A DNA stretch of 64,000 nucleotides from Mobula hypostoma (lineage: Eukaryota): positions 16,120,001-16,184,000 of the forward strand of contig NC_086108.1 of NCBI RefSeq assembly GCF_963921235.1. The letters run 5' to 3'. Both the position numbers and the translations under genes were made by a program. Shown piece after piece: positions 30,850 through 58,772 of this stretch (position 1 is the first letter of the stretch; each line of letters starts with the position of its first letter). The notes below the pieces were generated by a model. It had not been told where the DNA came from. It saw only the letters and a program-made list of their open reading frames with translations, and did no database searches.

Positions 30850-31046
30850 CTGTGGGATGGGGTGGTAGTGGGACAGGGACAACAGAAAGACAAGGTCAGT
30901 GGTGCAACGAACGTCAGTCACTGGCTGACAGATTCTGGAATCAAAGTGAAGTGAATTTATGTCATAGAAATGGGTTATTTACAAATAGGCAGGATGTGAG
31001 AATGCAAAGAGGCCATTCAGGCTTGTGATAAAATATGCCAAACTCA

Positions 31047-31658
31047 TGTAACACTCAGCTCTATCAACCCACGTTTGTCTAGGGGAAACCGCCGTCTGCC
31101 CGCCAGACTGTGTCTCATGTTTGCGTAGATGCTGTGTAATGCACTCCGGTACAACCCACAACGTTAAATATCAGGCAGCACACAATGTACGTTGAAACGA
31201 CTACACTTTATAAGTATTACTGTGACTATGGGGTTAGTAGAGAAAGAAAAATATAAAAAGGCGCCAAAAATAGGGATTATACAGTTCTTGCACAACGTTG
31301 GAGCTCACGCAATGTCCTCAATCCACCATTTGATTTCCTCCGAACTCCACGACCCTCGGACTGGGACCAACCACAGTGGTCTACCAGAGCGCGTCCCGCA
31401 TGTCCTTCCTCTTCGCCTCTCCTCGCCGATCTCCCGCGCACTCACCCAGGTTCCCACACATACAAATAGAATAACATGACTTCCATTGGTTAGTTCCCCG
31501 TTATCTATAAATATAACCCAAACATTTCAGCTACAAAGAACATTACCTCATCAGTTAACATTACAGAGAAGCCATTTCATTACAGCACTACAGAGAAGCC
31601 ATTTTATTATTAGCAGTTAACAGTTACAATTACAGTTAATAGTACTGAGAACTCTACA
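31047..31658 (-). repeat. Gypsy 3' LTR
   Basis: Direct repeat of 39711-40314. Confidence 0.95.
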
Positions 31659-31672
31659 TTCTCCCCCCACCG
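31659..31672 (-). promoter_or_regulatory. Polypurine tract
   Basis: Minus-strand CGGTGGGGGGAGAA immediately before the 3' LTR. Confidence 0.85.
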
Positions 31673-33882: not shown

Positions 33883-36520
33883 TAAACCTCTCAGGCTGGG
33901 GATTGCCCTGCAGGTGATGGGGCATGGTCCTCGGTTTCTCAACTCCCAGCATGCCCAGTAACTCATAGATGAGCTTACTCTCAAAATCCCGTCCCTGGTC
34001 ACTATGTATCCACTGGGGAAGGCCATAATGCACAAAATACTTCTCCCATAACACTTTTGCCACCGTAGTCACCCTCTGGTCCAGTGGTAGGAAAAGCACT
34101 ACTGCACATAGTGTAGTACATATCTAGTGTAGTGGTCTGTGATGACTAAGACATTCGCCGTGTTGCTGGCATCAGGTTCTATGGACAGAAAATCCATACA
34201 CGCCAGATCCAGGGGGGCCTGCACTCTGCAGGTGTGACAAAGGAGCTGCCTGCACAGGCATATGCAGTGAATGCCTGACTTGCAATATTCTTTAACTTCA
34301 TTCTGGGCCACTAAAACCTGTCCTTGAGCAATCCATAGGTCTTCTCCACCCCCAAATGCCCAGAATCATCGTGTAGTGACTTCAACACAATCTTCCGATA
34401 CTTCTCGGGCAGGACCAACTGCCAACACCGAGGTCGGTCCGGGGGTGACGTTACCCGGTATAAAATTTGTTTCCTCAACTTTAACCGAGGCCATTCCCTC
34501 AGTAATGGAGGCACTGAAGCGTGTTTCGTCTACTCCGCCCACGCTATATTCCCCTTTTGCACCGCGTACCAAATGGTGCCAATGCCCAGGTCATCTCGCT
34601 GAGCAACTGCCACTTTCCCTGGACTCAATTCAGGCAGCTGTTCGGTCTTCAGAACAGTTAGGTCACAGTAAACTGGGGGTAGGGCATCGTCAAAAGCCCC
34701 CAATGGGTCCACTGCGCAATCCAGCCTCTCCTTTTCCTTGCCCTTCACAGTGATAGCAAACTGAAACGTGGCTTTCACCTCAGGGGCAGGAACGCTCTCC
34801 CACTCCTCATCCCTCTCCAGTTCCCCGTGCATCTGTTGGGACAAAGCGTCTGCATCAACGTTCTGGCTCCCCGGCTGGTACTTCAGGCTGAAATCATACG
34901 ACGACAAGGCTGCCAACCACCGATGGCCTGCAGCATCCAGTTTTCCCGAAGTCAGGATGTAAGTAAATGGGTTGTTGTCCGTCTTCACCTCAAACTTGGC
35001 CCCGTAGAGATAGTCACTCAGCTTATCCACCACCGCCCATTTTAATGCCAGGAACTCCAACTTGTGGGTGGGGTAGTTTCTCTTGGAGGATGACAAACTC
35101 TGGCTGACAAACGCTACAGGTCTCAATCCGGTGCCCTGATCTTGATACAAGACTGCCCCTAATCCCTTTTGGCTGGCATCGGTGTGTAGTACATAGGGCA
35201 ATCGGGGGTCCGCAAAAGCCAGCACTGGTACCTGGGTCAGCAACTCTTTCAGCAATTTAAAAGCTTCCTCACATTTCGCATCCCACCTGTGTCCGAAGGG
35301 CTCCGATGGGTTGAGATATTCTCCAATCTCCTGTCCCCTTTTCCCTTTCCCTTTCTTCCCCAAAGGAGGGTAACCACGCAGAAGCTGGTTCAAGGGGTGA
35401 CTCACTTTGGCGTAGCCCTTCATGAATATCCAATAATAACCACAGAACCCCAAGAACGAGTGCAGAGCACTCACAGTCTCGGGCCTTGGCCACATGGTCA
35501 CTGCTTCTATCTTAGCCGGCTGTAGCTACTCCATTCCGCAAGACTATGTGCCCAACATAGCTAACAGACATCTTGCAGAACTGGCACTTGTCCAGGGAGA
35601 GTCTTAACCCTTCCTCCTTCAGTCGGCTTAGCATCTTCAGTAGCTTCGTTTCATGTTCTTCCAAGGTGGATCCAAATGCTATCAAGTCATCCAGCACTTC
35701 AAGCAAATTCATATCCCCCACCATATTCTCCATGACCCCTGGAAGATGGCCAGGGCTCCCAATATGCCCTGGGACATCCTTTCGAATTGGAAAAGTCCCA
35801 GAGGGCAAATAAATTCTGTCTTCTCTTTGTCGGCCTCACTCATCAGGATCTGGTAATATCCACTCCTCAAGTCCAGCACACTAAACCAGCGCGTCTTCGA
35901 CCCTCAGGACTGTATACTGCCAGGGACAGTGCGCCGGTTCAGGGTCCTATAGTCCACACACATGCATACCTTTCCGTTCTTCTTCCGGGTCACTACTATT
36001 GGGGATGTATAAGGGCTTTGGGATTCAGAGATGATTCCAGCTTCCTTCAACTTACACAGGTGCTGGGATCTTCCACATCTGCAGGGGCCAGCCGCCGTGA
36101 CCTCTCTCTAAACAGGGTGTCCTCAGTCACCTGGATGGTGTGGCGAGTGCTCTTGGAACAACCCACATCAAACTCGCCACAGGAAGAAACATCTTCTCCA
36201 CCAGCCTTTGCTTCCAACCTGGCAGCACAGGAGAGTCCCCAAAGTTAAAGGCCTCAGCAGTCAGCTTTCCTCTGTTTTCCAATCTGTCCCCCCAAGTAGG
36301 CCTCAAGCGGGGGGGGGGCGCTAGACATTACCGTCACTGGGAACTAATGCGCCAGCAGCATCCCTCTCTTAAAGGTGATTTCTCTTTTCGTAGTGTTCCT
36401 GACAATCACAGTAACACCGAGAGCCTCTGCACTTTGGGTCTCACCAGCACCCCAGCCGGAAATCGTGACTCCCCCTCGAGGTCTTCCACTAAGAGGGCCT
36501 CGCCATCAGGCACTCTGGCA

Positions 36521-37679
36521 AATAAGACCATAAGACAAAGGAGCAGAAGTCGGCCATTCAGCCCATCGAGTCCGCTCTGCTATTATATCATGAGCTGATC
36601 CATTCTCCCATTTAGTCCCACTCCCCCACCTTCTCTCCATAACCTTTGATGCCCTGGCTACTCAGATACCTATCAATCTCTGCCTTAAATACACCCAATG
36701 ACTTGGCCTCCACTGCTGCCCGTGGCAATAAATTCCATAGATTCACCACCCTCTGACTAAAAAAATGTCTTCGTATTTCTGTTCTGAATGGGCGCCCTTC
36801 AATCCTTAAGTCATGCCCTCTTGTACTAGACTCCCCCATCATGGGAAACAACATTGCCACATCCACTCTGTCCATGCCTTTCATCATTCGAAATGTTTCT
36901 ATGAGGTCTCCCCTCATACTTCTAAACTCCAAGGAATACAGTCCAAGAATGGACAAACGTTCCTCATATGTTAACCCTCTCATTCCCAAAATCATTCTAG
37001 TGAATGTTCCCTGTACTCCCTCCAACGTCAGCACATCCTTTCTTAAATAAGGAGACCAAAGCTGCCCACAGTGCTCCAAGTGAGGTCTCACCAGCGCCTT
37101 ATAGAACCTCAACATCACATCCCTGCTCCTATACTCTATTCCTCTAGAAATGAATGCCAACATTGCATTCGCCTTCTTCACCACAGACTCAACCTGGAGG
37201 TTAACCTTAAGGGTATCCTGTATGAGGACTCCCAAGTCCCATTGCATCTCAGAACTTTGAATTCTTTCCCCATTTAAATAATAGTCTGCCCACTTATTAC
37301 TTCTGCCAAAGTGCATAACCACACACTTTCCAACATTGTATTTCATTTGCCACTTCTTTGCCCATTCTTCCAATCTATCCAAGTCTCTCTGCAGACTCTC
37401 TGTTTCCTCAGCACTACTGGCCCCTCCACCTATCTTCATATCATCAGCAAACTTAGCCACAAAGTCATCTATTCCATAATCCAAATCGTTGATGTACAAG
37501 GTAAAAAGAAGTGGCCCCAACACGGACCCCTGTGGAACACCACTGGTAACCGGCAGCCAACCAGAATAGGATCCCTTTATTTCCACTCTCTGTTTCCTGC
37601 CAACCAGCCAACGCTCTATTCACGTATGTAACTTTCCCGTAATTCCACGGGCTCTTATCTTGTTAAGTAGCCTCATGTG
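36521..37679 (-). mobile_element. Young CR1 nested in Gypsy pol (duplicated TGGCA), open 324-aa RT/C-terminal ORF
   Basis: GVPQGSVLGP, FADDMK; tail (GTCTTATG)n. Confidence 0.93.
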
Positions 37680-38308
37680 TGGCATCTGGGGGTTCCCATC
37701 ACTCTCGCTATTTCCCTGTGCCTTATTACCTTAGGCTTTGACTGGGTGCACCACACAGTCCCTCGTTTAAATTCAGTATCTGGCCCAGGGCAGCTCCGCA
37801 CTTCCTCAAAAGCAGCTCGAAACACTGGGTGCACAGCCTGGGTCTCCAAAAGGTTCTCACCCTCCCTCTCCTGGCAGGCCCCCATGAGCCTCCGCACCAC
37901 AGGGGTGTTGGTCCCCATCAAAATTGAAGCACCCCCCCTTCTCAACTGGGTCCGGACAAACCGGCACGAACGTCTCCAGAACTTCGGACACTCCCACATC
38001 GGCTTCTGGAAACTCCAGTCTCACTGACAAATACCCGTCATACGGATAATCACCAGCACTGACGCCCCAAATCTCCAGCACACTGAATGGGGTCAGGGGC
38101 AAATGCTTTAAATACTGGTTGTAAAACAAACGGTATAGTAACCCGCGACCCGGTGTCGAGTATGGCTTTAGCATAGGTTCCCTCCATCCGTAGCGACACG
38201 TTGGATCGGGGTCCCACTAATCCTTCCAGAATCGGGTCTTTTGCTTTCGGGGGTTCCGTGGTACATTTCTGGGAACATGTTCCCCCCCAGAGACACCAGG
38301 CTGTTCCC

Positions 38309-39645
38309 TCACTGGGTCTCCTCTAAGTTTCCCAACATCTCTCCCTGCTTGGATACCCAGGGACTCGCCCTCCGAGGGGCTCCCTGCCACTCACACTCTC
38401 TCCGAAAGTGTCCCTCTTTTCTACAGTTATAGCACACGCTACTGGTCACCCCTCTTCTCGCAGACCCCCCACCACTCACAGCCCTTTGCGCTGTCCGTCC
38501 CCTGGGGGGGGGCCCTGCCTACCGCCCCCTCAGTTCTCAGCTCGGCCACCACCTCCTTTATCAATTTCCGGGTGCAGCTGGCTCTGCTCACTTCCCCACC
38601 AGGGGCTGCAACTGAGGCTTTCACCCTACTGAAAGAGCCCTCCCGCGGCCTCAACATGTTCTCATCCCCCCTCACGTCTCGGATCAGTGAACGACCGTCA
38701 GAGGAGAGCATGTTTTATAGGACTGCTGGAGACCACAAGCAGTCTTGTCCTCAGCCTGGGCACCCCTAGTTACCTGATCCATCCTTAACTGATACACCTG
38801 TTCAGCCTGAATGACCCCCCACCCCCGGCACCGCAGCCCCCTAAGCCGTCTCTCTAGCCGAAAGATGTACGCGGAGAGCTTCTCACCCTGCTCCAGACAC
38901 ATGCTCTGAAACTCCCTGAGGAGTTTCCAAGGCCTCCAGATAGTCAGTCAGAGCGACAGCGGGCTGGTTATCCTTCACACTGCACACTACCCCAGCCGCC
39001 ACTCCCCGCAAACCTTCAACCAATCGCTGTCACTTCTCCTCATCCGAGCACTGCCACTCACTTAACAACTGTGTTGTTTGCTCTATCCACGTCTCATAAT
39101 CCTCTTCACCTTCGGGGGTGGGTGTTATCCCAGAGAAAATTCTTATCCTCTGGCGGGGCCCCTCTGCCTTTCTCGCCAGGGAGGTAATTGCAGATGCCAA
39201 CTCGGAAGTCTCTCTTTTCCCTAAGGGGCAGGAACTAACCAAATTCTCCAAATCTGACCACTCTTTCCCTTCATCCCTCAGTACCAAAAGAATTAGTTCC
39301 CTAAGATCTCCTCCCTCCTCTGCTGGCGACTCAGCTCGCTGGGCTCCGGCCCCTCCCTTCCCGACAATTTGCAGACACCATGGTCCCACCTCCCCTAGGA
39401 TGCCAGTCCTCTCCAGCAACTCCGCCCCTCGTAAGTCTTCGCTTGTCCACACCAACACTAGGCCCGTGCCCGTCTCAAAATCAAAGTTTCGCGATACAAT
39501 TTCCACTTTGCCAGCAGCTTTAACCGTACTCAAACCTCGGAGTATCACTTCATCTGATACATTAGTCCTCACCCCCTTCAACACACACGCATTGCTTACT
39601 GGCACCCCCGCAGCCGCACACCATCGCTGAAAGGCAGCTGTCAAC
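38309..39645 (-). pseudogene. Gypsy gag, PNMA-like, with CCHC knuckle CYNCRKEGHFRREC (38393-38434)
   Basis: RIRIFSGITPTPEGEEDYETWIEQ...WQCSDEEK and QGEKLSAYIFRLE resemble the PNMA/Ma capsid family. Confidence 0.85.
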
Positions 39646-39687
39646 TGTACTTTAAAGAGAGTGGTCACATAGGTTCTACAGAATTCA

Positions 39688-39706
39688 ATCCTGGACAAGG
39701 GCCCCA
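39688..39706 (-). promoter_or_regulatory. Primer-binding site, tRNA-Pro-like (degenerate)
   Basis: TGGGGCCCTTGTCCAGGAT, 4 nt after the 5' LTR; resembles the tRNA-Pro PBS TGGGGGCTCGTCCGGGAT. Confidence 0.7.
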
Positions 39707-39710
39707 CAAA

Positions 39711-40314
39711 TGTAACACTCCGCTCTATCAACCCACGTTTGTCTAGGGGAAACTGCCGTCTGCCCGCCAAACTGTTCTCACGTTTGCATAGATACTGTGT
39801 AATGCACCCCGGTACAAACCCCACAACGTAAAACATCAGACAGTACACAATGTCCGATTAAATGATTACACTTTATAAATTTTACAGTGACTGTGGGGTT
39901 AGTAGAGAAACAAACATATAAAAATAAAAAGGCGCCAAAAATAGGGATTATACAGTTCTTGCACAATGTTGGTGCTCATGCAATGTTCTCAATCCACCAT
40001 TCGATTTCCTCCGAACTCCATGACCCTCGGGCTGGGACCAACCACGGTGGTCTACCGGCGCGCATCCCGCACGTCCTTCCTCTTCGCCTCTCCTCACCGA
40101 TCTCCCGTGCACTCACCCAGGTTCCCACACATACAGATAGAATAACATGACTTCCATTGGTTAGTTCCCCGTTATCTATAACTATAACCCAAACATTTCA
40201 GCTGCAAAGAACATTACCTCATCAGTTGCATTTCATTATAGCACTACAGAGAAGCCATTTTATTATTAGCAGTTAACAGTTACCATTACAGTTAATATTA
40301 CTGAGAACCCTACA
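39711..40314 (-). repeat. Gypsy 5' LTR
   Basis: Direct repeat of 31047-31658. Confidence 0.95.
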
Positions 40315-40424
40315 CTCACAAGATGTGGCAAGCTTCAATTAGCCAATTTTCCTTTGGGTTCCAACAGCAACACACCTAGATGTTGATTCAGTGTGAGCTT
40401 AAAACTGACTGACATCAGGAGCGG

Positions 40425-41228
40425 TGTGACAACAGACCAAATTATCAGAAGATTGATGCCGATAAGAGGACAATGGGGGACGAGAGAGATTAACGAAAGG
40501 GAGACACAGTTCCGAGGATTGTCAAGACCAGTTGCTTTGAACCTGAACTGTTTGAAGTTTGATGGACAGGCGATACCCCAGCAGGGGGATAAAAGGGACA
40601 GGTTCACCAAGGCAAGAGACACACCACGACACCACGAGGTAACGAGACCCTGGAAGCGGTGTGCCCCTACAAGTTGGTGGGAGTTTTGGAGGTCTGGTCG
40701 CGGGACCAGCCATAGACGCACAGGGTGGAAAGGTACGGTCGGCGGGAACCCGGTGTGTGTGTCCGCCCTTGCCTGGGTGCCGGGTTCACCGCAGAAGAAC
40801 GATCGTATCTGGAATGGAGGGGTCACAGTCGGTGACCTCAGAAGACATTACAAAGGGCTCGCCCAAAAGCTAACTGCGAGGAATATCGAAGGTCTGTTTG
40901 GAATCCGATTTGCATATTCGTTCGCTCTCTCTCCCTCCCCAACGGCACAACAGCGATTACTGCGAACTGAACTAAATTGAACTGAACTCTGTGTCACTTG
41001 AGACTGATCATTTTACCCCTAGACTGCGCTAGAACTTGATTGATCCTATTACCCTAGTTCTGTGTACATGTGTGTTTTATCATTGCTAACCTGTTGCATT
41101 TATATCCTTATGATTAGAGTACTGTGTTGTTTATTTCTTTAATAAAACTTTCTTAGTTCCAGTAATCCAGACTCCAACTAAGTGGTCCATTTCTGCTGGT
41201 TTGGAACCCAGTAACGGGGTACGTAACA
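40425..41228 (+). mobile_element. Solo LTR (second family), TSD GCGG
   Basis: TGTGAC...GTAACA termini; gcgg at 40421-24 and 41229-32; AATAAA near 41141; homologous to 56056-56968. Confidence 0.9.
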
Positions 41229-41664
41229 GCGGGAACTCTGCACAAAAAGTTATCAGTTGTAGCCTGAGATTGACAGTAGCTCCCCTACTCAGGCCCAAGA
41301 TCCATATTGTTTCTTGCAGATCTGAAGCCTGTCAGCATTGCCATATGGACAAAGCCCAGTTATTCTCTGCATCTTTGAGGGCTCATTCTCCTCTCCCTTC
41401 TGACAGGTGCATTGCTGACCCCAAGAATTTTCCTACAAAAGCAAACCATGACCGTCCATCCTCACATATAGTGGATACAAAATCATAGGCATTCTGGCAT
41501 ATGTTTTCCAGGAATTCAGTATATTTCCCCCAGAGCAGCATTTAAAAGCAAGGAGTCAGAGTTGTACAGCACATGCCTATGCTGGCCATTTGCCCATCTA
41601 TACCAATCCTATTTGTCTACATTAGGTCTGTCTCCTCCTATGCCTTAGCAACGTGTACAGACTA

Positions 41665-41920
41665 CAGGAGGACTCAGCAGGTCAGGCAGCATCAATGGAA
41701 ATGAATAAATAGTCGTTGTTTCAGGCTGAGATCATTCATCGGGACTGGAAAAGAAGGGAGAAGAAGCTAGTATTAGAAGGAAGGAGGGAAAGGAGTACAA
41801 ACTAGAAGGTGATAGGTGAAGCCAGGTGGGTGGGGGAGGCGGGATGAAATAAGAAGCTGGGAGGTGATAAGTGGAAAAGGTAAAGGGCTTTCGATAGGAG
41901 AGGAGAGTGGACCATGGGAG
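41665..41920 (-). mobile_element. Penelope-like fragment with degenerate hammerhead (41711-41746)
   Basis: Minus strand AGTC-CCGATGA-13 nt-GAAA-CAAC-GACT plus purine-rich core. Confidence 0.6.
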
Positions 41921-41989
41921 ATACTGTATGGAAAAGAGAAAGGGGTTTGGCATGTGAGAAAAGATGGAGTAAGAGGGGTTCAGAGTGGA

Positions 41990-43400
41990 GAACTGTATCG
42001 GTAGTTCAGTGGAGTAAGGGGAATTACAGAGAGAAGTGCTGCTCAAAGTTGATTGGAAGGGAATTGGCAGGGATGATGGCAGGACAGCAGTGGATGGAGT
42101 TCCTGGGGCAATTTGGAAAACACAGGATAAACACATTGCAAAGATGAAGAAGTATTTTAAAGGGAGGATGAGGCAATTGACACTGACAAGGGAAGTCAAA
42201 GAAAAAATGAAAAGGGAAGGAAAGCAAAATAGAGAGCATTTAATATATCAAAAATTAGTGGGAAGTTAGGTTGGGAAGCTTTTAAAATCAACAGAAGGCA
42301 ACTAAAACAGCCATTAGCCGAGAAAAAATGAAATATGAAGGTAATCTAGTCAATAGTATCAGAGGATACCAGAAGTTTTTCAGAGAAATGCAATAAAGTA
42401 TATTCTGTCTTTACTGCAGAAGACACAAGCACTATACCAGAAATTTGAGAACGTCAGGGGTAGAAATGAATGTAGTTGTTATTACTAAGAAGATGCTTGG
42501 GAAGCTGAAAGGTCTGAAGATTTTCTAAGGGTGGAGCTTAGAAGGACGATGGCGCCTAATGGCGACTCCTTTGCTTGCACCTTCGGAAGCATCTTTAATG
42601 TCTCTATTTTTCCCTTTCAGGGTTCTTTTGAAGATCCTGACCTGGAGTTACACACTGACTTAGGTTCTATGTGGAAATGAGGGGGCTTTGGGGTTCTAAC
42701 ATTTAGCTGTCATTCATTCTTTGGGCCATTCCTCTGTTTTTGTGGACATTTGTGAAGAAAAAGAATTTCATGATGTATATTGTATACATTTTTCTGACAT
42801 TAAATATACCTATTGAAACCTATTGAGATAAGTTTGGTCCAACTCATGAAGGTAGGGATGTCACATGCCATCTTCACCAATCTATCAACCTGTGTTGCTA
42901 CCTTCAGAGAACTATGGACCTGAACCTGTTCGTCTCTGTGTTCATCAACACTCCTTAGTGCCATTCCATTTACCATATTTGTCCCAAGTTCCCAAAAATA
43001 CATCACCTCATACTTTTTGGAATTAAGGTTATTAAGGTTATTAAGAAGGCAAACGGAATGTCGGCCTTCGTTGCTATATGGATTGAATTCAAGAGCAGGA
43101 AGGTCATGCTGCAACTATACAGAGTACTGGTGAGGCCGCACCTGGAGTACTGTGTGCAGTTCTGGTCTCCATACTTAAGGAAGGATATACTGGCTTTGGA
43201 GGCAGTGCAGAGGAGGTTCACCAGGTTGATTCCAGGGTTGAAGGGGTTAACCTATTAGGAGAGATTGAGTCGCCTGGGACTACACTCTCTGGAATTCAGA
43301 AGAATGAGAGCGGATCTTATAGAAACATACAAAATTTTGAAAGGGATGGATAAGATAGAAGTAGGAAAGTTGTTTCCATTGGTAGGTGAGACTAGAGCTG
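41990..43400. mobile_element. Mosaic of CR1 fragments (+ 41990-42520, - 42827-43010, + 43020-43400) with non-coding repeat 42524-42826
   Basis: QWSKGNY..QQWMEFL; RPHLEYCVQFWSPYLRKD. Confidence 0.75.
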
Positions 43401-45678
43401 TGGCTTGAGATGACCCTACCGCACAACCAGTTTTCAGGTGTTCACAGACTTACATACATCCTACATTAAATCATAGAGAATTGCATACTGCTGAAATGTT
43501 GAAAATATTTTAAAAAACACAGAATCTGGAAAAATAAAAGCAGAAAATGCTGGAAGTAGTCAGTAGGTCAAACCACACTGGAAGAAAAGAACAGAGTAAA
43601 AGAGGGGAAAACAAACAAACTGAGTTAATATGCTCTTGGACTTTAGGGTCTTTGACAGATGAAAGAAGGGAAAGCATTTATCTACAGCAGCACTGAATGT
43701 GGTAGAGAGTAAAGTGGAACTGTGGATAATGACAGCTTTCAGTAGAGCAGTACCAGCTCAGCTTAATATTCTTTTTGAGAATGGAGGACATTCCTTGTCT
43801 GACCTACCAGCCACGTCCTCCTGCTGTGCATTTTGCAACTCCTACGTTCTTGTATCTACTTTCTTTTGTTGGCATTCGTGCCCTCCAACTGCTCCCATCC
43901 ACTCACTGGATAACCTGTCTGCAGTTTATCCCCATGGTCAATCTGGTTTTAGCCAACAAAGACATCATCCCGACCTCACCCTCCCCCAGCATAATGAGCT
44001 TCTTTTGTCTTCTTCCCAGTTCTGAACAGTGGCCTTCAACTTGCCATGTTAACTCTATTTCTCTTTTCACAGATGAGGCCTGACTTGCTAAATATTTCCA
44101 GCAGTTTCTATATTTATACCGCTGAAGCAAGAGACTGAAATTCACAAGTGACCAAACTAGGCATATATAGTAACTCAGGGTGAAATACAATTATTAAAGA
44201 GCCGATAATGATATTCAAATACAAAGAATGCATTCTATGCTCATCCATGTGTCAGAAACTGCAATGAGGGCAAACCCAGCAACGTGCAGTGAGGCTCCAT
44301 ACCGGCCAAGCTGAGGTCTTTAGGTACTACAAGTCTGTGTCTTTATTGATGCTTTGCTGTACATTTGAATGCTCCGTGGGGGGTGCCAATGTTTTTTTGC
44401 TGGTGGGGGAGGGGGTCATTACCTTGCTGTTCCCTATGGGTAGGAGAGGGGAGCTGGGGGGGTGCTTTGGGGTTCTAACATTTAACCGTCATTCATTCTT
44501 TGGGGCACTCCTCTGTTTTTGTGAATGTTTGTGGAGAAAAAGAATTTCAGGATGTATATTGTATACGTTTCTCTGACATTAAATGTACCTATTGAAACCA
44601 CAGTAAATCTGAAATCAGTGGGCATCAAGGGGAAAAACACTTCAGGACCAGGTCTGTACCCCATGGCATTTTATAAGCAAACATTGAATCCCTCATCATC
44701 AATATCTTAGTGGGTATAATGTCCTGGAACATAAACAGTGTGGCTATAACTAGCAAACAACAGGAATTCTGCAGATGCTGGAAATTCAAGCAACACACCA
44801 GCAACTTTTATGTGTGTGGTTATAACTAGCAGTGTGTTATAATTAACAATGAGACTATAACTAGCAGTTCGCTATAACTATCAGTCAGTGATGAGGTTCC
44901 TTGTATCTCACCTCCTGACACACCAAAGCACAGGTCAAGAGTACGCTGGATTACTCTCCATTTGCTGGATGGATGCTGCTTCAAGAAAACTCAAGAAGCT
45001 CAACACAATTAAGAACTTTCTTTATCAGTGGCAATCCACAACCACAGCTTGTCCACTATCTGTTAGATGCTATGTGGCAACTCACCAATGCTTCTTTGTA
45101 GTTCCCTTCCCACCATCTCCATTACAAAAAAATAACTAGGTCAGCAATACCAATGTCCTGAAGGAAGGCTGGTACCCACTGCATTGACTTCTCCTGACAT
45201 CAGCCAAGTATTATATCAGAGGAGCTTACTCCAATCTTTGCCCAAAGATTTACAGAGTTCCCAGTTGACATATGAAAGAAAACAGGATAAAACAGAATAA
45301 CACAATCTGTGTTGCCACAACTCAATGATTCAAGTCATGTTCTAATTCTGCACTTAGAACCAGACTTAAGTTTTGTGTTGAAGCGAAGGTCAGACTTCAG
45401 ACACACAGATATAAACATATTGTAGATCAAAGAACAAGGGCAACTCTCCCTGTAGGTTTGGATAACATGGTACAATAATAGGTGCAAAGAACAAACTAAT
45501 TTTCTCTAAATCCAAAGTAAACACACTCAAGTTCTCATTGGGAAACTTTCTTGGACAAAATCTCCAGGAAATGGAACAAGAACTATTGAATCGATGCTGT
45601 CAAATTTCTGGAGGGTTCACTCTACCTCTGCAGGGAGCTCAGTGGAAGTTGCCCTTAATGAATCTGCTTTGACATATT

Positions 45679-45867
45679 CGCAAACACAAGGAAATCTGCA
45701 GATGCTGGAAATTCAAGCCACACACATCAAAGTTGCTGGTGAACGCAGCAGGCCAGGCAGCATCTCTAGGAAGAGGTACAGTCGATGTCTCGGTCTGAAA
45801 CGTCGACCATACCTCTTCCTAGAGATGCTGCCTGGCCTGCTGCATTCACTAGCAACTTTGATGTGCG
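45679..45867. mobile_element. Palindromic Penelope-like insertion, 14-bp TSD TGCTTTGACATATT
   Basis: TSD at 45665-45678 and 45868-45881; inverted arms of about 65-70 bp. Confidence 0.85.
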
Positions 45868-46982
45868 TGCTTTGACATATTGACTGCCAATGAACAGAGT
45901 CTAGCAAAAACATTAAAGAGACTGTGATGGTGGCACAAAGCAGTCTGCATTTATTGAACTGTTCCAACTTAAAACCATTCAACCAGTGTATTTTAGAGTC
46001 GGGTGACCAATCAAAAGCAAACAACAACTTCCCAATCATGGGGAGTGAATTCCCGTCTCCACTTTAGTCCCCTTTTCCTCAATTGATGGTTCTGGTGAGT
46101 TTCCATCTATAAAAAAATAATAAAAATGACTTATTTCTGGTGGTTGTTCCTACTGGACTTACTAGTTATGTATTATCAGTGCTCAGCTTAACAAAAGACA
46201 GCAAAGGTTGTGGTGACACTCTGGTCTAAGGGAGAAGACCATGAGCTCATCTACTTGAGTCTCAAGTCTTTAATGAAGGATGATATCTCTAGTGAAGTTC
46301 TGAGGAACTTGTGCATTGTCAGAGGTGCTAACGTTCAGCAAAAGTATTCAACTCCTGTCCTCTCAGATTAATATAAAACATCCCAGAACACTGTTTTTTA
46401 GAATTTCAGGTAGTTTGGTCCTATGTTCTGCCCAGAATTTATACTTTAGCCTACATTGTCAAGAGATTAACATAACACTGTTGCCATGACCTTGCTGTTT
46501 ATGACTGGCTATTACAACAGAGATCACATTTCAAAAGTACTCCATTGGCACATTTGGGACCAACCAATGCAAAGAACTAACCACAGGAGGAAAGTGCTAG
46601 AGATAATAATGCAATGGGAGCTTCTTGTTCACTCAATACAAGTCTGATGGTTCAAATATGTTGAAGAAAAGACATTTATTTAAGTAATCAAGTCCATCAG
46701 TTCAAACTCCAGCCCGGGAGTCTAGTCCAAGTAAAAGATGGTTAATATCCAGACCAAGTTTGAGGGCTCGATTTTTTGAGAAAACTTTGCTCCTAGAACA
46801 TCACATGACTCAGGATGGAGGGTGAGGAGACTTAGATCATTCCATTTGAGAATGCTAGAGATTGGGAAGATCAGCAATCTGCTCCTGCCCTTAGGTCATT
46901 CACACATTGAAGTTATGATTGCTGCCATCCTAGGATGGGCGTAATGAGCCTATACGCTGTCTCTGCTAACCCTACTCGCCTG

Positions 46983-47094
46983 AGTCCTGCCGAAGGGTCT
47001 CGGCCCAAAACATCGACCGCAATCTTTTCCACAGGTGCTGCCTGGCCTGCTGGGTTCCTCCAGCATTTTGTCTGTGTTGCTTGAATTTCCAGCA
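46983..47094 (+). mobile_element. Single-arm Penelope-like repeat with degenerate hammerhead
   Basis: AGTC-CTGCCGA-AGGGTCTCGGCCC-AAAA-CATC-GACC...gcttgaatttccagcat. Confidence 0.7.
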
Positions 47095-47189
47095 TATTGT
47101 TCCTGACTTATTTTGTCTGGATCTCAAATGGGATCTTTCTGTAGAAAGAAGGCACTGTACTTAGCTGTAATGGTTGCAGGCAGTGTACT

Positions 47190-47415
47190 GGTGGGGAGGG
47201 GGAGGGAACGTCGACTCAGACCATGAGGCCTGTGTCGGGCATTTTCATGCCTTACAAAGCACAGATTGGAGGTCTGTGTGGGGCACCACTCCTCACACAG
47301 ACACAATGTGTGGTTAAGTGCCTTGCTCAAGGTCACAAACATGCTGCCAACAGCAAAGGCTCGAACTAGCGACCTTCAGATCATTAGATGAACGCCTTAA
47401 CCACTTGGCCATGTG
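47190..47415 (-). mobile_element. tRNA-derived SINE (A/B boxes plus ccttgagcaaggcacttaac core)
   Basis: Minus strand TGGCCAAGTGG (A box) and AGTTCGAGCC (B box). Confidence 0.7.
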
Positions 47416-47544
47416 AATCCCAAGTACTGCACAGTATCAGGAAGTGCAAGAAACAGCAGGCCCCTGTAAAGCCAGTTGACATCGTGTTAAACACAACAAA
47501 TGCTTATGGCTGTTAGAAACATACAAAGGCAATTCCACAATGAT

Positions 47545-50508
47545 TAAACATAGAACACAGAACATATAATAATACAGCGCAGAACAGGCCCTTCGGCCCA
47601 CAATATTGTGCTGACTCTTAAACCCTGCCTCCCATATAACCCCCACCTTAAATTCCTCCATATACCTGTCTAGTAGTCTCTTAAACTTCACTAGTGTATC
47701 TGCCTCCACCACTGACTCAGGCAGTGCATTCCACGCACCAACCACTCTCTGAGGTAAAACCATTGTCTAATATCCCCCTTAAACTTCCCACCCCTTACCT
47801 TAAAGCCATGTCCTCTTGTATTGAGCAGTGGTGCCCTGGGGAAGAGGCGCTGCCTATCCACTCTATCTATTCCTCTTACTATCTTGTATACCTCTATCAT
47901 GTCTCCTCTCATCCTCCTTCTCTCCAAAGAGTAAAGCCCTAGCTCCCTTAATCTCTGATCATAATGCATACTGTCTAAACCAGGTAGCATCCTGGTAAAT
48001 CTCCTCTGTACCCTTTCCAATGCTTCCACATCCTTTCTATAGTGAGGTGACCAGAAATGGATACAGTACTCCAAGTGTGGCCTAACCAGAGTTTTATAGA
48101 GCTGTATCATTACATTGCGACTCTTAAACTCTATCCCTTGACTTATGAAAGCTAACACCCCATAAGCTTTCTTAACTACCCTATCTACCTGTGAGGCAAC
48201 TTTCAGGGATCTGTGGACATGTACCCCGAGATCCCTCTGCTCCTCCACACTACCAAGTATTCTGCCATTTACTTTGTACTCTGCCTCGGAGTTTGTCCTT
48301 CCAAAGTGTACCAACTCACACCTCTCTGGGTTGAACTCCATCTGCCACTTCTCAGCCCACTTCTGCATCCTATCAATGTCTCTCTGCAATCTTCGACAAT
48401 CCTCTGCACTATCCACAACACCACCAACCTTTGTGTTGTCTGCAAACTTGCCAACCCACCCTTCTACCCCACATCAGGTCGTTAATAAAAATCACGAAAA
48501 GTAGAGGTCCCAGAACCAATCCTTGTGGGACACCACTAGTCACAACCCTCCACCACCACCCTTTGCCTTCTGCAGGCAAGCCAATTCTGAATCCACCTGG
48601 CCAAACTTCCCTGGATCCCATGCCTTCTGATTTTCTGAATAAGCCGACCGTGTGGAACCTTGTCAAATGCCTTACTAAAATCCATGTACATCACATCCAC
48701 TGCACTACCCTCATCTATATGCCTGGTCACCTCCTCGAAGAACTCTATCAGGTTTGTTAGACGCTATCTGCCCTTCACAAAGCCATGCTAACTGTCCCTG
48801 ATCAGACCATGATTCTCTGAATGCCCATAGATCCTATCTCTAAGAATCTTTTCCAACAGCTTTCCCACGACAGACATAAGGCTCACTGGCCTATAATTAC
48901 CTAGAGTATCCCTACTACCTTTTTTGAAAAAGGGGGCAATATTCGCCTCCCTCCAATCCTCCGGTACCATTCCCGTGGACAATAAGGACATAAAGATCCT
49001 AGCCAGAGGCTCAGCAATCTCTTCTCTCACCTCATGGAGCAGCCTGGGGAATATTCCGTCAGGCCCCGGGGACTTATCCGTCCTAATGTATTTTAACAAC
49101 TCCAACACCTCCTCTCCCTTAATATCAGTATGCTCCAGAACATCTACCTCACTCATATTGTCCTCACCATCATCAAGTTCCCTCTCATTGGTGAATACCG
49201 AAGAGGAGTATTTATTGAGGACCTCGCTCACTTCCACAGCCTCTAGGCACATCTTCCCACCTTTTTCTCTAATCAGTCCTACCTTCACTCCTGTCATCTT
49301 TTTGTTCTTCACATAATTGAAGAATGCATTGGGGTTTTCCTTTACCCTACTCGCCAAGGCCTTCTCATGCCCCCTTCTTGCTCTCCTCAGCCCCTTCTTA
49401 AGCTCCTTTCTTGCTACCCTATATTCCTCAATAGACCCATCTGATCCTTGCTTCCTAAACCTCACGTATGCTGCCTTCTTCCACCTGACTAGATTTTCCA
49501 CCTCACTTGTCACCCATGTTTCCTTCACCCTACTATTCTTTATCTTCCTCACAGGGACAAATTTATCTCTAACATCCTTCAAGATATCCCTAAATATCGA
49601 CCACATGTCCATAGTACATTTCCCTGCAAAAACATCATCCCAATTCACACCTGCAAGCCTCATAGCCTCATAATTTGCCCTTCCCCAATTAAAAATTTTC
49701 CTGTCTTCTCTGATTCTATCCTTTTCCATGATAATGCTAAAGGCCAGGGAGCAGTGGTCGCTGTCCCCCAGATGCTCACCCAGTGAGAGATCTGTGACCT
49801 GACCCAATTCGTTACCTAATACTAGATCTAGTATGGCATTCCCCCTAGTCGGCCTGTCAACATACTGTGACAGGAATCCAACCTGGACACACTTAACAAA
49901 CTCTGCCCTGTCTAAACCATTGGAGCTAATCAGGTGCCAATCAACATTAGGGAAGTTAAAGTCACCCATAAATAACCCTAACAACAGGAATTCTGCAGAT
50001 GCTGGAAATTCAAGCAACACACATAAAAGTTGCTGGTGAACGCAGCAGGCCAGGCAGCATCTCTAGGAAGAGGTGCAGTCGACGTTTCAGGCCGAGATCC
50101 TTCGTCAGACGAAGGGTCTCGGCCTGAAACGTCGACTGCACCTCTTCCTAGAGATGCTGCCTGGCCTGCTGCGTTCACCAGCAACTTTTATGTGTGTTGC
50201 ATAAATAACCCTGTTATTTTTGCACTTTTCCAAAATCTGCCTTCCTATCTGCTCCTCTGTATCTCTGCTGCTACCAGGGGGCCTATAGAATACCTCCAGT
50301 AGAGTAACTGCTCCCTTCCTGTTCCTGACTTCCACTCATACTGACTCAAAAGAGGATCCTGCTGCATTAGCCACCCTTTCTGTAGCTGTAATAGTTTCCC
50401 TGTCCAGTAATACCACCCTTCCTCCCCTTTCCCCCCATCTCTATCCCTTTTAAGGCACTGAAATCCAGGAATATTGAGAATCCATTTCTGCCCTGGTGCC
50501 AGCCAAGT
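47545..50508 (-). mobile_element. CR1 (EN to 3' end), same subfamily as 5852-6607
   Basis: ORFs 48788-50020 and 47691-48416 carry [26 protein letters not shown] and RPHLEYC. Confidence 0.95.
49980..50200. mobile_element. Palindromic Penelope-like insertion, 12-bp TSD ATAAATAACCCT, 93-bp arms
   Basis: TSD at 49968-49979 and 50201-50212; arms 50014-50106 / 50108-50200 with one mismatch. Confidence 0.9.
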
Positions 50509-51089
50509 CTGTATGTATGAATTAAATTACTTTAAAATAGTAATTAAAATGAAAAACTTAAAAAACACAAACGTCATCAAATTCAATTATTCCCCACTGA
50601 AATTCAGCAGGCAGAGATGGTTCAGGCAATGTAAGTGGTGCATGTTGCTGCAAATTCATAGTGGTCCACTGGATCCTATGGAAAGGCGAGCTTTTAAACA
50701 GCAGATTTGAAATGCTGGGCTATTGCTGGCAGCTGGTTTGGGAATAATACATTTGAATTCATGTGTGGAAAATCTAAACTTGCAGATTAATGTTGACAAT
50801 CCACGTGGAATGCTCCCACTTCCATACGAAATCTGCCTGAATGTGTTCCACGAATGCAACTCTGGATAGTCCACATTTGTGTGGTTCCAACAATTATTGG
50901 TACATACTACGTACCTTGGTTCCAATGATGGATCGTCCAGTTTTGTTCTGAGCTCCAGCATGATGGTCCACATTGTGGTCAATTGTTATTGCCTTTAGAT
51001 GGCATACTGGTATTGTTTGCATTAAAATAAACTACATTCAACTCAAAGTGAAGAAATTCACTTGCATTGTACTCTGATTGTGAAGTTCA

Positions 51090-52620
51090 GCTTTAGACAG
51101 ATAGGAGAATGAGTGGCAGATTACATGTAGTGCAGGGAAGTATATGGTTTTGCACTTTGGCAGAAACAATAAAGGCATGGACTATTTTCTAAATGGGGAG
51201 AAAGTTCAAAAGTCAGAGTTGCAAAGTAACTTTGCAGGATTCCCTAAAGGTTAACTTGCAGGTTGAATCAGTGGTAAGGAAGGCAGATTCAATGTTAGAA
51301 TTCAATTCAACAGGACTAGAATATAAGAGCAAGAGTGGAGTGTTGAGGTTTTATAAGGCATTGGTCAGACTGCACTTTGAGTATTGTCTTGAGCCCCTTA
51401 TCAAAGAAAAGATGTGCTGGAACTGGAGAGGGTCCAGAGAAGATCCACGAGAATGATTCTGGGATCGAAAGGGTTAATGTATGAGGAGAATTTAATGGCT
51501 CTGGGCCTGTACTCACTACATTGACCACATGAACTTTAATCTTAGGCTTTTGACAAGATCCTACATAGGAATAGAAGGCTAGTCTGGAAAGTGAGGTATC
51601 ATCAGGTCCTGGGTGAGCAAGCCAACTGGATAAAAATTTGACCTGGAGAAAGGAGTAAGGGGGTGTGAATGGAGTGTTGTTTTTCCACATTGGAGGCCTA
51701 TGACCAGTGGTGTGACAAAGATCAGTATTGGGTTCCCTTTCGCCTGTCACATATGTTAACAATTTGCATGAGGATATAGGTGGCATGATGAGTAACTTTG
51801 TGGATGATACCAAAGTTGATGTGTGGAAGGTTAAAGTGAAGAAGGTTATCTAAGGTCCCAAAAGAACCTAGATCAAGTAGGAGGCTAAGCAAAGGAATGG
51901 GAGATAGAATTTAACTCAGAAAAGTGATGCGCTTTGGAAAGTTCACTGAGGATGAGATAAACAGAGTGACTGACAGGCCCCTGATGAGTTGTAGTAGAGA
52001 CCTACATAGTTCGCTGAAAGTCTCGCCAATTTAGTCACGGTTGTGTAGAAGACATATATTACACTTGGCTTCATCGGATGGGTCATTGATTCCAAGAATT
52101 GGGATGCCATGTTATAGCTGTACAAGACATAGTGAGACCATTTATGGAATATTGTTCTGTTTGCCACACTATAGGAAGTATGTGATTTGGTTATTGAGGG
52201 TGCAGACAAGATTCACAAAACTGTTACCAGGACTAGAGGGTTGGAGTTAAAAAGAGAGATGGGGTAGGCTGGGTCTGAGCGAAGGAAGCTGCAGGATGGC
52301 CTCACAGGGCTTTTAAAATCCATGTATGGTGAATGATGACACACTTTTTCCCCAGCTTAGGGAAATTGAGCACTAGAGGGCATAAGTTAAAGGTGAAAAG
52401 GAAGAAATTTAAAGGGGAGCTGAGGGCAAGTTTTTTACTCAGAAGGTGGTGGGTGCATGGAATGAGCTGCCAGAGGAAGTGGCAGCAGCAGGTACAATGA
52501 CAATATTCAGAGACACACATAGAGAGGAAAGATATAGAGGGATATGGGCCAACACAAGCAAATAGGACAGCTCAGATAAGCACAATGGTCAACATGAATA
52601 AGTGGGCTGAAAGTCTTGTT
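51090..52620 (+). mobile_element. Two old CR1 RT/3' fragments
   Basis: LKVNLQVESVVRKA, LVRLHFEYC, FVDDTK, HYRK..RVQTRFTKLLPGL. Confidence 0.75.
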
Positions 52621-52629
52621 TTACATCCA

Positions 52630-54590
52630 TAAGATGATAAAATATAGCAGAATTAGACAGTCAGCCCATCGAGACTAGCTCTGCCATTACTTCATGGCTG
52701 ATTTATTATCCCTCTCAACCCCATTCTCCTGTCTTTTCCCCATAACCTTTGATGCCCTGATGATTAAGAACCTGTCAAACTCTGCTTTTAATATATTCAA
52801 TGATTTAGCCTGCACAGATGCACGTGGCAATGAATTCCACTGATTCACTACCCTCTGGCTAAAGAAATTCCTCCTCATCTCTGTTCTAAAGGACATCCCT
52901 CTATTCTAAGGCTGTGCCCTCTGATTCTAAACTTCCCCACTATAGAAAACATCCACTCTATCTCAACCTTTCAATATTTGAAAGATTTCGATGAGATCCC
53001 CTGTCATTCTTCTAAACTCCAGCGAGTGCAGGCACAGAGCCATCAAATGCTCATCATATGTTCAGCCTTCCATTCCTTGGATAGTTTTCATGAACTTCCT
53101 CTGGACTCTCTCCAATGTCAGCACATCCCTTCTTATGTAAGAGGCCCAAAATTGCTCACAGTACCCAATATGCGGTCTGACCAATGTCTTATAAAGACTC
53201 AGCATTACATCCTTGCATTTGTACTCTAGTCCTCATGAAATGGATACTAACATTACCTTTGACTTCCTTACCATTGACTCAACCTGCAAGTTAACCTTGA
53301 GGGAATCCTACATGAGAACTCCCATGGCACTCTACACCTCTGATTTTTAAAAAAATTTTCTCCCCATTTACAGAATAGTCCGTGCCTGTTGTATACTTAA
53401 TATTTCAATAATATTTGAGTAATCTTGTATGTATAAATGCTTATATATATAGTTTGATTAAGCATTAACAATTAATTATGGGTTATATGTAAAAATATAC
53501 TGATTGCATCCTCATGCTACCATTTGATACGTGTGCCTTGTTTAAAGTAAAGAAGAAGCCAGATTCGCATTTCGGACTCCCGTGTCTTCCTTTGAATTAA
53601 TTGAATGTTTGAAGTTATAGAACATAACGCTTTTATTCCTTCTGTCAAAGTGCATGACCATTATATTCTTTCATCTGCAAACTTAGCCACAAAGCCATCA
53701 ATTTCTTCACCCTAATTTTTCACAGGTAACAAGAAAAGAAGCAGTCCCTACACTGACATCACTAGTCACTGGCAGTCAACCAGAAAAGGCCCCCTTTATT
53801 CCCGCTCGTTGCCTCCTGCCTGTCAGCCAATCTTATGTTCAAGCTAGTATCTTTCCTATAAACATTGGCTCTTATTAAACAGCCTCATGAGTGGCACCTT
53901 GTCAAAGGCCTTTTGAAAATCCAAGTAGACAACATCCACTTGTTATTTCCTCAAAGAATTTCTACAGAGTTGTCAGGCAGGATTTTCCCAGAAGGAAACT
54001 ATGCTGACTTTGGCCTAATTTATCATGTACTTCCAATTACCCAAAACCTCATTTTTAATATTGGATTCCAACATCTTCCCAACTGCTGAAGTCAAGCTAA
54101 TTGGTATAGAATTTCCTTTCTTCTGCCTCTTTCCTTTCCTGAAGTGTGGAGTGACATTTGCAATTTCCCAGTCCTCCGGAACGATTCCGCAATATAGTGA
54201 TTTTTGCAATATCATTACTAATGCCTCCACAGGCTCTTCAGCTACCTCTTTCAGAACCCTGAGTTGTAGTGCATGTGGTCCAGGTGACTTATCTACCTTC
54301 AGACCGTTCAGCTTCCCAAACACCTTCTCCTTAGTAAAAGCAACTACACTCACTTCTGACCCTGACAATCTTGAATTTCTGGCGTGCTACTTGTGTCTTC
54401 CATAATGAAGACTGATGCAAAATATTTATTGATTTCGTCCACCATTTCTTTGTCCCCCATTACTACCTCTCCAGCATCATTTTCTAGTGGTCCGATATCC
54501 TCTCACTCTTTGTGTATCTGAAGAAAAACTTTTAGTATTCTCTTTTGCATTATTGGCTAGCTTACCTTCATATTTCATGATTTCTCTTGC
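52630..54590 (-). mobile_element. Degenerate CR1 with an AT-rich insert at 53387-53628
   Basis: KVDKSPGP..VPEDWEIANVTP; FRTEMRRNFFSQRVVN. Confidence 0.85.
53387..53628. mobile_element. Possible small solo LTR
   Basis: TGTTGT...ATAAC termini interrupting a CR1; TSD unclear. Confidence 0.4.
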
Positions 54591-54824
54591 TTTCGTGCTG
54601 TTGTAACTCTATGACTCCATTTGAAAAGTATCTTGCTGACTGCTCTGTGCTTTGAGAGGTGATGAGGCCATGAATGTTCAATGAGAACTAGCTCTCACCT
54701 TTTCTGAATCCAAAACATAACGAGACACCTAATATCACTCAGGCATGAGCTTCACAACTATCTGGCCAAACGTTAATTGTCTGTCTCCTGATGGGAGAAA
54801 GAAATATGTCATCTAATGGCCTTT

Positions 54825-54928
54825 CAAGCAACGCACATCAAAGTTGCTGGTGAACGCAGCAGGCCAGGCAGCATCTCTAGGAAGAGGTACAGTCGACGTT
54901 TCGGGCCGAGACCCTTTGTCAGGACTAG
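54825..54928 (-). mobile_element. Single-arm Penelope-like repeat with near-consensus hammerhead (54891-54926), TSD ATGGCCTTT
   Basis: TSD at 54816-24 and 54929-37; minus strand AGTC-CTGACAA-AGGGTCTCGGCCC-GAAA-CG-TC-GACT. Confidence 0.85.
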
Positions 54929-55185
54929 ATGGCCTTTAGCTGGTTTTTATAGACAACCATGGAAAAATCGACCTGGGGCAGGAAACCTTATCCAAGTAAC
55001 TATCATTTCCCAGGGCTTCTTAATGATTTTTGGCTTTGGCAGAGCACCTGGGAATGCGGTCATTGGAAATGGACTACAGGATAACATAACAACCACAATG
55101 GTGGCCATATGGCCTGTTCCCTTCCAACAGAAAGAGGGAAATGAAGCTTAGCCCCGGACCAGCCCCCACCTCCCAGCTCCCTTAC

Positions 55186-55429
55186 TTGCATCTTCTGCTG
55201 ATGGCTTTGGGAGTATCAGCATGGAGCCGAGATTGGCCGTGTCTTCAGTGACCAGCAACTTCCAGTCCTCATCAGTCAGGCTCTCAGAGTCGCCGACGGC
55301 AGTGCAGGCCTGGCTCAGCAGTAGTGCCCGCGCCATCCTCCTGATGAACAAGTCTTCAGCATCTGTTGTAGGTGTTGGCAACTTCTTGCACTCTGTCCAG
55401 CTGCTTGGATCATTGGGTTCACTCCCAGC
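55186..55429 (-). CDS. RGSL1: RGSL1-like exon C (244 nt, AGSEPND...ALLLSQA...LVTEDTANLGSM...EDA)
   Basis: Acceptor ttacttgctctatttaag|, donor A|gtaagg, phase 0/1, open frame. Confidence 0.8.

Positions 55430-58732: not shown

Positions 58733-58772
<40 letters not shown>

What the first reader, a model, noticed from the sequence alone, without database searches (positions are those of the whole stretch)
49980..50200. TSD-flanked 93-bp hairpin made of two inverted minimal hammerhead-ribozyme units
Seen: a 221-bp non-coding insert with a 12-bp TSD whose arms (50014-50106 / 50108-50200) pair with one mismatch around a 1-nt loop. The minus strand reads CUGACGA-AGG-AUCUCGG-CCU-GAAA-CG-UC-GACU; the plus arm has the same motif with CAGACGA. 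Known: Penelope-like elements carry minimal type I hammerheads whose helix III is replaced by a palindromic ACGU that needs dimerisation, and they often insert as inverted arms. Inference: this is a young, very small non-autonomous retroelement (retrozyme- or MITE-like) in an RGSL1 intron. It could form a long dsRNA or cruciform. The 5' strand of helix I is disrupted at the fold point, so this copy may be inactive.
Basis: partly seen in the sequence, partly recalled or inferred. Interest (0 to 1): 0.72.

Follow-up and report, generated by a model that had tools for sequence, protein, structure and literature searches.

The report
Tiny fold-back Penelope retroelement insertion
This hairpin is a short, young insertion of a very common Penelope-type jumping gene in a ray genome, laid down as two head-to-head end pieces in a pattern already described for this class, and its ribozyme motifs are broken, so it is real but ordinary.

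Summary
In detail: 93-nt arms (one mismatch), 1-nt loop, 12-13-bp TSD, in an intron of an RGS-like gene identical to a Mobula hypostoma protein, inside an old CR1. It is not a new small element. The left arm runs 34 nt beyond the right one, which is the published Penelope-like (PLE) 'inverted 5'-truncated copy plus 30-40-bp tail' layout (PMC8557442, PMC3846280, PMC11167929). The arm family is hugely abundant (70,273 contigs laid in one run). Other copies continue past the fold with native helix-I sequence, and folds lie at many different points (3 of 3 young double-armed copies in the window differ; 9 different joints among 15 shown). That argues against an amplified fixed MITE or retrozyme unit. 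Neither hammerhead unit is intact: helix I is 1 bp in both, one has a broken core, the other a broken helix II. Best mechanism: both ends of a staggered cut primed reverse transcription and the two short cDNAs joined at a self-complementary spot. A link to a PLE RT/GIY-YIG ORF was not shown here. The scan noted the same pattern before in a shark (e1-7789271).

The parts
49967..49979 (.). Left target-site duplication (13 bp; 12 bp if C50200 is counted as arm)
   Evidence: Paralogous CR1 sites carry the site once, with 2 more bases than this copy (tables 5 and 5c); both repeats share this copy's private change, so the duplication arose at insertion
49980..50013 (-). 34-nt PLE 3' 'tail', present on one arm only
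   Evidence: Loose ends with variable flanks (agreement 0.42-0.56) at 49980/49986 in all 4 runs mark the family 3' end; 30-40-bp tail described in PMC8557442, PMC3846280 and PMC11167929
50014..50108 (-). Long arm: 5'-truncated pLTR end, sense on the minus strand, starting at the C of the hammerhead CUGACGA box
50076..50108 (-). Minimal type I hammerhead remnant: core intact, helix II cut to 2 bp by the 50098 change, helix I 1 bp (5' strand lost); predicted cut site between 50081 and 50080
50107..50108 (.). Head-to-head junction (loop A50107; G50108 shared by both arms) at the family's self-complementary GUC-CU-GAC spot
   Evidence: native upstream letters in loose ends at 50108
50108..50200 (+). 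Short, tail-less arm: 5'-truncated pLTR end, sense on the plus strand, ending at the family's internal boundary
   Evidence: Variable-flank loose ends at 50201 (54 contigs, run X6) and 50013 (4 contigs, X4); sibling arms end within 4 nt of the same place
50106..50138 (+). Second hammerhead remnant: core broken (CAGA for CUGA), helix II intact, helix I 1 bp
50200..50212 (.). Right target-site duplication
48788..50500 (-). Host: decayed CR1-type LINE ORF2 fragment (endonuclease region) interrupted by the insert
   Evidence: frames on both sides; PF14529 E=7e-4 and RVT_1 E=0.015, both below curated cut-offs; empty-site joints from paralogues; the label CR1 is from my own knowledge of the sequence type
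30851..55186 (-). Host gene intron: between the RGS-like (RGSL1) exons at 55187-55429 and about 30737-30850
44755..44815 (.). Sibling insertion: tail arm plus an inverted, almost non-overlapping 20-nt piece; 15-bp TSD (44740-44754 / 44816-44830, one mismatch)
45679..45867 (.). Sibling insertion: head-to-head arms with a different, asymmetric fold inside the hammerhead; 14-bp TSD
54825..54928 (-). Sibling single arm with native helix I 5' strand (5 bp) and no tail; 9-bp TSD

Best explanation
A single, young retrotransposition product of a high-copy endonuclease-bearing Penelope-like element (PLE) of rays. (1) The element's nuclease made a staggered cut 12-13 bp apart in an AT-rich spot of an old CR1. 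The TSD is shown; the enzyme is inferred. (2) Each free 3' end primed reverse transcription on the element RNA's 3' region, one near the 3' end and one at an internal site 34 nt upstream. This gives a tail on one side only. The boundaries are shown; the two start sites are inferred from in vitro work on the anole PLE. (3) Both cDNAs stopped after about 129 and 93 nt, at the 5' edge of the hammerhead, and were joined head to head at a self-complementary spot (inferred; a cDNA snap-back would give a similar product). The result is a dead-on-arrival palindrome. The hammerhead motifs are passengers from the pLTR and cannot fold, so the only plausible activity is passive: an intronic RNA hairpin or a DNA cruciform.
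For: Tail on one arm, 34 nt; the same layout is described for PLEs. In vitro, the anole PLE cuts and extends both strands, starts at two adjacent sites bounding the tail, and does not need ribozyme cleavage. The motif fits the PLE minimal-hammerhead consensus. The family is very abundant, with recurrent ends at both boundaries of this insert, and continues upstream with native sequence in other copies. 3 of 3 young double-armed copies in the window share the tail-less end (TSD starting at family positions 91-95) but have different folds. 9 different hairpin joints appear among the 15 joints shown. The 44.7-kb sibling has nearly non-overlapping inverted pieces, as double priming predicts. The hammerhead core is sequestered: opening it costs about 31 kcal/mol.
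Against: No PLE RT or GIY-YIG sequence could be tied to the arm. 0 of 119 frames near related copies hit such a family; the one RT hit, 23545-23757, I took for a LINE fragment from its position and did not test further. Motif search found nothing PLE-like. Protein searches returned only two exonised-arm gene models and three repetitive proteins. Four collection scans found 0 loci. The two cDNAs overlap for 93 nt and end within 2 nt of each other; 2 of the 9 joints shown are also exactly symmetric. That fits snap-back copying or secondary trimming of a palindrome as well as two independent cDNAs. Only 15 of 432 joints were shown, so a frequent identical fold elsewhere is not excluded.
Confidence: 0.8

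Rival explanations
1. Same PLE origin, but the palindrome arose by snap-back: one cDNA stalled at the hammerhead, folded at the self-complementary GUC/GAC spot and copied itself back, and the copy was joined to the second target end by microhomology.
For: Near-symmetric fold at a natural quasi-palindrome. 2 of 9 shown joints are symmetric at 4-bp palindromes. The arms agree at the family's polymorphic sites 50025, 50042 and 50139. Self-priming was proposed for PLE palindromic junctions in PMC3846280.
Against: It does not by itself explain why the tail-less end is fixed at positions 91-95. In both siblings the short arm holds sequence that the long arm lacks, unless the tips were deleted later.
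Confidence: 0.1
2. One reading: the 221-bp palindrome is itself a small non-autonomous family (MITE- or retrozyme-like) that is copied as a unit, or is made from a dedicated short RNA.
For: Very high abundance of the arm. Several 5' ends in the window fall at or just inside the hammerhead (family positions about -5, 1, 3, 11, 27). Some other folds have contig depths well above single copy, e.g. 198 over 2 contigs against 16-26 for several flank pieces. Animal retrozymes are reported to derive from pLTRs.
Against: Folds are heterogeneous; there is no second copy of this fold in 64 kb; TSDs vary from 9 to 15 bp; the arms are unequal; there is no head-to-tail hammerhead tandem; both ribozymes are broken.
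Confidence: 0.08
3. Assembly or library fold-back artefact.
For: Perfect palindromes are a known artefact class (own knowledge); no listed contig spanned the centre (tables cut).
Against: Perfect TSD, one-sided tail, one arm mismatch, and aged siblings with the same design and diverged arms.
Confidence: 0.02

Closest known systems
Complex insertions of endonuclease-bearing PLEs: inverted 5'-truncated pLTR plus 30-40-bp tail and TSD (PMC3846280 passages; PMC8557442 passages; PMC8969392 passages)
   Same: Head-to-head inverted copies, tail at one end only, short TSD, palindrome at the inverted junction, insertion into another retroelement.
   Different: Both arms are cut so short (129 and 93 nt) that no ORF body is left and the whole insert is one hairpin.
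Poseidon element of Anolis carolinensis, PAc (PMC11167929; main text read)
   Same: Hammerhead about 90-130 nt upstream of two adjacent 3' boundaries; template not cleaved at the ribozyme site; AT-rich target.
   Different: The clade of the ray family was not determined. PAc starts are reported as not homologous to the target, whereas three insertions here show partial target-template matches at the internal end.
Minimal type I hammerheads of metazoan PLEs (PMC4209133; results and Fig. S3 text read)
   Same: CUGANGA, extra A, helix II, GAAA, palindromic CG, UC; the paper also notes pairs of such motifs about 100-700 bp apart on opposite strands.
   Different: No cartilaginous fish among the Fig. 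S3 rows I saw; in this copy both units are broken.
Non-LTR retrozymes (PMC7229834 passages; bioRxiv 10.64898/2026.07.22.740005, parts 1-2 of 5)
   Same: Short, non-coding, type I hammerhead, related to pLTRs.
   Different: Retrozymes are head-to-tail tandems with complete ribozymes on one strand, giving circular RNA; this is a head-to-head pair with broken ribozymes.
L1 twin-priming 5' inversions (recalled; search listing only)
   Same: Both target ends prime cDNA, giving an inverted piece within one TSD.
   Different: L1 pieces barely overlap and the internal site varies; here the internal end is fixed and the arms overlap by 93 nt.

Membership tests
Endonuclease-bearing PLE insertion | Minimal hammerhead motif near the 3' end (pLTR) | tested here: met
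   Motif fits the consensus. Native helix I is seen in the 54.8-kb sibling (5 bp; that copy has its own core change at G8) and in loose ends at 50108 in 4 of 4 runs.
Endonuclease-bearing PLE insertion | Inverted 5'-truncated copy adjacent at the 5' end | tested here: met
   siblings
Endonuclease-bearing PLE insertion | 30-40-bp tail at one end only | tested here: met
   34 nt here; 37-38 nt equivalents in two siblings (one search gives 35, 39, 38 counting the first TSD base)
Endonuclease-bearing PLE insertion | Short TSD of variable length | tested here: met
   13, 15, 14 and 9 bp in four insertions
Endonuclease-bearing PLE insertion | Arm is the end of an element with telomerase-like RT plus GIY-YIG ORF | tested here: inconclusive
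   No genome held; nothing found in the window, protein sets or prokaryotic, viral and metagenome collections. These sources are unlikely to hold it.
Functional minimal hammerhead (this copy) | Intact CUGANGA core, helix I of at least 3 bp, intact helix II on the same unit | tested here: not met
   Minus unit: helix I 1 bp, helix II 2 bp. Plus unit: CAGA core, helix I 1 bp.
Functional minimal hammerhead (family) | Self-cleavage as a dimer or with protein help | not testable with these tools
   Only contigs were available; no raw RNA reads.
Non-LTR retrozyme | At least two head-to-tail units with complete hammerheads on one strand | tested here: not met
   Units are on opposite strands and broken; definition.
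Non-LTR retrozyme | Abundant monomeric or circular RNA | not testable with these tools
   No raw RNA reads offered.
MITE | Homogeneous unit length, terminal inverted repeats at both ends, fixed TSD | tested here: not met
   One end carries an unpaired tail; lengths are 61, 189 and 220 nt; TSDs 13-15 bp; folds differ.

The most novel reading that the evidence does not exclude
These mini-palindromes record a step of PLE integration that has not been shown: the second target end primes at the fixed internal site by partial base-pairing with the element RNA, and the two nascent cDNAs are joined, or snap back, at short self-complementary words, often in the hammerhead itself. In the three double-armed copies, 14 of the first 21 TSD bases match the element's own continuation (empirical p 7e-5; 11 of 18 without the first base, p 0.002; n=3, noticed after the fact). 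This differs from the in vitro report that PLE initiation is not homologous to the target. With a very large number of young copies, this genome would allow a genome-wide test, including whether a short spliced or hammerhead-limited RNA is the usual template.
Probability: 0.3. Interest if true: 0.5.

Novelty: new member of a known kind. Interest (0 to 1): 0.2.

Why it matters
As a single locus it matters little: a dead intronic insertion. As a sample of a very large young family it is useful, because the steps that make PLE inverted ends and tails are still unvalidated (PMC11167929 says so), and short TSD-bounded copies expose both priming sites and the joint. Such perfect intronic hairpins could also be substrates for RNA editing or small-RNA pathways, which was not tested.

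Tried and rejected
Rfam scan of 49700-50500 at E<=10: no hammerhead family; miRNA hits reflect the hairpin only. Pattern scans gave 0 loci: viral contigs once, metagenome contigs twice, GTDB genomes once. No PLE ORF remnant was found by recalled short protein motifs or by Pfam on 119 frames near related copies. A 42-aa frame through arm and tail found 1 protein and 5 representatives, none with PLE domains (one search scanned 4 of the 5; the fifth, P0001, carried only PF10457). The frame upstream of the old 41.7-kb copy found 0 of 25 candidates. No RNA holder was listed and all runs were contigs, so expression and cleavage were not addressed. The orthologous empty site and presence in related species could not be read: no such joint among 15 of 432 shown. 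Summed depth was not used as a copy number. Literature searches for Penelope + Mobula + genome and Penelope + cartilaginous + retrotranspos + ray genome gave 0 papers; hammerhead + Penelope + shark gave 4 papers, none on shark elements as judged from titles and abstract starts, plus passages for one. The library lacks most subscription papers and Repbase/Dfam, so the family may be catalogued there. The PAc supplement Fig. S2 was a picture, its .gbk file was unreadable and supplements 1 and 3 were not read; bioRxiv supplements were closed. I rejected a ribozyme dimer in cis, because the units are on opposite strands and so never in one RNA as two sense copies.

Full report
Observation. The sequence is as described. 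50014-50106 and 50108-50200 are reverse complements over 93 nt, with one mismatch (T50098/G50116) and a one-base loop. A 13-nt direct repeat (49967-49979, 50200-50212) brackets the insert; its first base is shared with the right arm, so 12 nt and 221 nt is an equally valid count. The next-longest comparable stem in the first 58 kb is 15 bp, and 5 of 5 shuffles gave 14 or less. Both strands fold into a hairpin of about -203 kcal/mol. Rfam returned no hammerhead family at E<=10.

Setting. The long exon at 61104-62051 (minus) is 100% identical to a protein named 'regulator of G-protein signaling protein-like' of Mobula hypostoma. It also interrupts a decayed LINE ORF2. The frames on either side read as endonuclease-region sequence (weak Pfam scores; the name CR1 is from my own knowledge). 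Contigs from paralogous LINE copies skip the insert and carry the target once (6 of the 15 joints shown). Those paralogues have two more bases at the site, and both repeats here share the shortened version. The duplication was therefore made at insertion, on an already mutated LINE.

What the arms are. The left arm continues 34 nt (49980-50013) beyond its partner. nhmmer with the 129-nt arm gave 16 hits in the window, among them two other young double-armed insertions (44755-44815 and 45679-45867), a single arm (54825-54928) and older relatives. Laying four public contig sets on 49700-50500 placed 70,273, 4,066, 42,479 and 10,837 contigs (these include the LINE flanks and are not copy numbers). 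Summed depth peaks on the arms at about ten times the LINE flanks in the largest set. Loose ends show three things. First, variable flanks at 49980/49986, the family 3' end, in all 4 runs. Second, variable flanks at 50201 and 50013, a second internal boundary (one run each among the 24 of 1,171 rows shown). Third, at 50108, in all 4 runs, a native upstream sequence ending in the missing helix I strand. Both outer ends of this insert are thus recurrent family boundaries, and the centre is a truncation point.

Comparison with print. Craig et al. (PMC8557442, passages) describe PLE insertions as often having an inverted 5'-truncated copy at the 5' end and a 30-40-bp tail at only one end. Arkhipova et al. 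(PMC3846280, passages) give examples with 8-10-bp TSDs, a 31-bp tail and palindromes at the inverted junction. Frangieh et al. (PMC11167929, parts 1-2 of 4 read) show that the anole Poseidon protein cuts and extends both target strands, starts cDNA at two adjacent sites that bound the tail, and does not need hammerhead cleavage. Cervera and De la Pena (PMC4209133, parts 1-2 of 4 and supplement parts 1-2 of 3) define the minimal hammerhead consensus that this family fits, and note opposite-strand pairs 100-700 bp apart. The finding reproduces each of these features in miniature.

Is the palindrome a family of its own? The evidence says no, with a gap. The three young double-armed copies in the window have lengths of 61, 189 and 220 nt, TSDs of 15, 14 and 13 bp, and three different folds, while their tail-less ends coincide (TSD starting at family positions 91, 92 and 95). 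Nine of the 15 joints shown lie within the hairpin and all nine differ; 417 joints were not shown, so a recurrent identical fold cannot be excluded. Retrozymes are defined by head-to-tail units with complete ribozymes (PMC7229834 passages; bioRxiv 10.64898/2026.07.22.740005 parts 1-2 of 5). That is not met.

Ribozyme state. On the minus strand the core is intact, but helix I has 1 bp and the arm mismatch reduces helix II to 2 bp. On the plus strand helix II is whole but the core reads CAGA and helix I has 1 bp. The two units lie on opposite strands. In the strand transcribed with the host gene, 12 of the 16 core positions are predicted fully paired, and freeing the core costs about 31 kcal/mol. 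This copy should not cleave. The template was uncleaved, since both arms extend more than 20 nt upstream of the cut site.

Mechanism. The geometry is what priming from both ends of a staggered cut gives: each target 3' end runs directly into antisense cDNA, one from near the family end, one from the internal site, meeting head to head. The TSD, boundaries and orientation are shown; the enzyme, priming and joining are inferred. The 44.7-kb sibling, whose two pieces overlap by only about 4 nt of template, supports two primings. Against a simple reading, the arms here end within 2 nt of each other at a self-complementary spot, and 2 of the 9 joints are symmetric at 4-bp palindromes. Snap-back or later trimming of the tip remains possible. 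One small new point: at the tail-less end the first 7 TSD bases match the element's continuation at 14 of 21 positions (empirical p 7e-5; 11 of 18, p 0.002, without the first base). This was noticed after the fact in three copies and needs a genome-wide test.

What failed. I could not tie the arm to a PLE RT or GIY-YIG ORF. Membership therefore rests on the motif, tail, inversion and TSD. Unchecked scan notes report Penelope ORFs and similar arms in this genome and the same fold-back population in a shark; I count them as leads only. Expression, cleavage and polymorphism were not testable.

Verdict. Real, young and neatly preserved, but an ordinary product of a known class: new member of a known kind, interest 0.2.

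Noticed in passing
P0001 and P0018: The arm is exonised in two Mobula gene models (a STARD3 N-terminal-like isoform and an uncharacterised protein). Both enter at the same peptide, VSPDEGSRPE, which points to a splice acceptor just 5' of hammerhead helix I, as reported for Drosophila Penelope in PMC4209133. That acceptor is cut off in this insert.
   Followed up: partly
window 45679-45867: The long arm of this sibling starts 2 nt upstream of the predicted hammerhead cut site, within a palindromic TCGA; this could reflect cleavage or just microhomology.
   Followed up: partly
window 26091-26333 and 29476-29790: Two old, decayed head-to-head pairs of related arms with spacers of roughly 80 and 170 nt, suggesting the same layout in older subfamilies.
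   Followed up: partly
window 41655-41930 (minus): Older relative with about 190 nt of pyrimidine-rich upstream sequence, probably more of the pLTR or 3' UTR; no protein match.
   Followed up: partly
window 44740-44885: The 61-nt sibling is inserted in a short degenerate tandem of ctataactagcag-like units, which recur three or four times.
   Followed up: no
window 32400-39900: Gypsy-like LTR element remains (RT/RNase H-like frame 34530-35525, gag-like frame 39030-39857, 94% direct repeats at 31249 and 39920) interrupted by LINE fragments; labels are from reading the translations.
   Followed up: no
window 62509-64000: Frames resembling a DNA-transposon protein lie immediately upstream of the large RGS-like exon.
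   Followed up: no
window 58700-60200: 1.5-kb complex GT/GTA microsatellite in the RGS-like intron.
   Followed up: no
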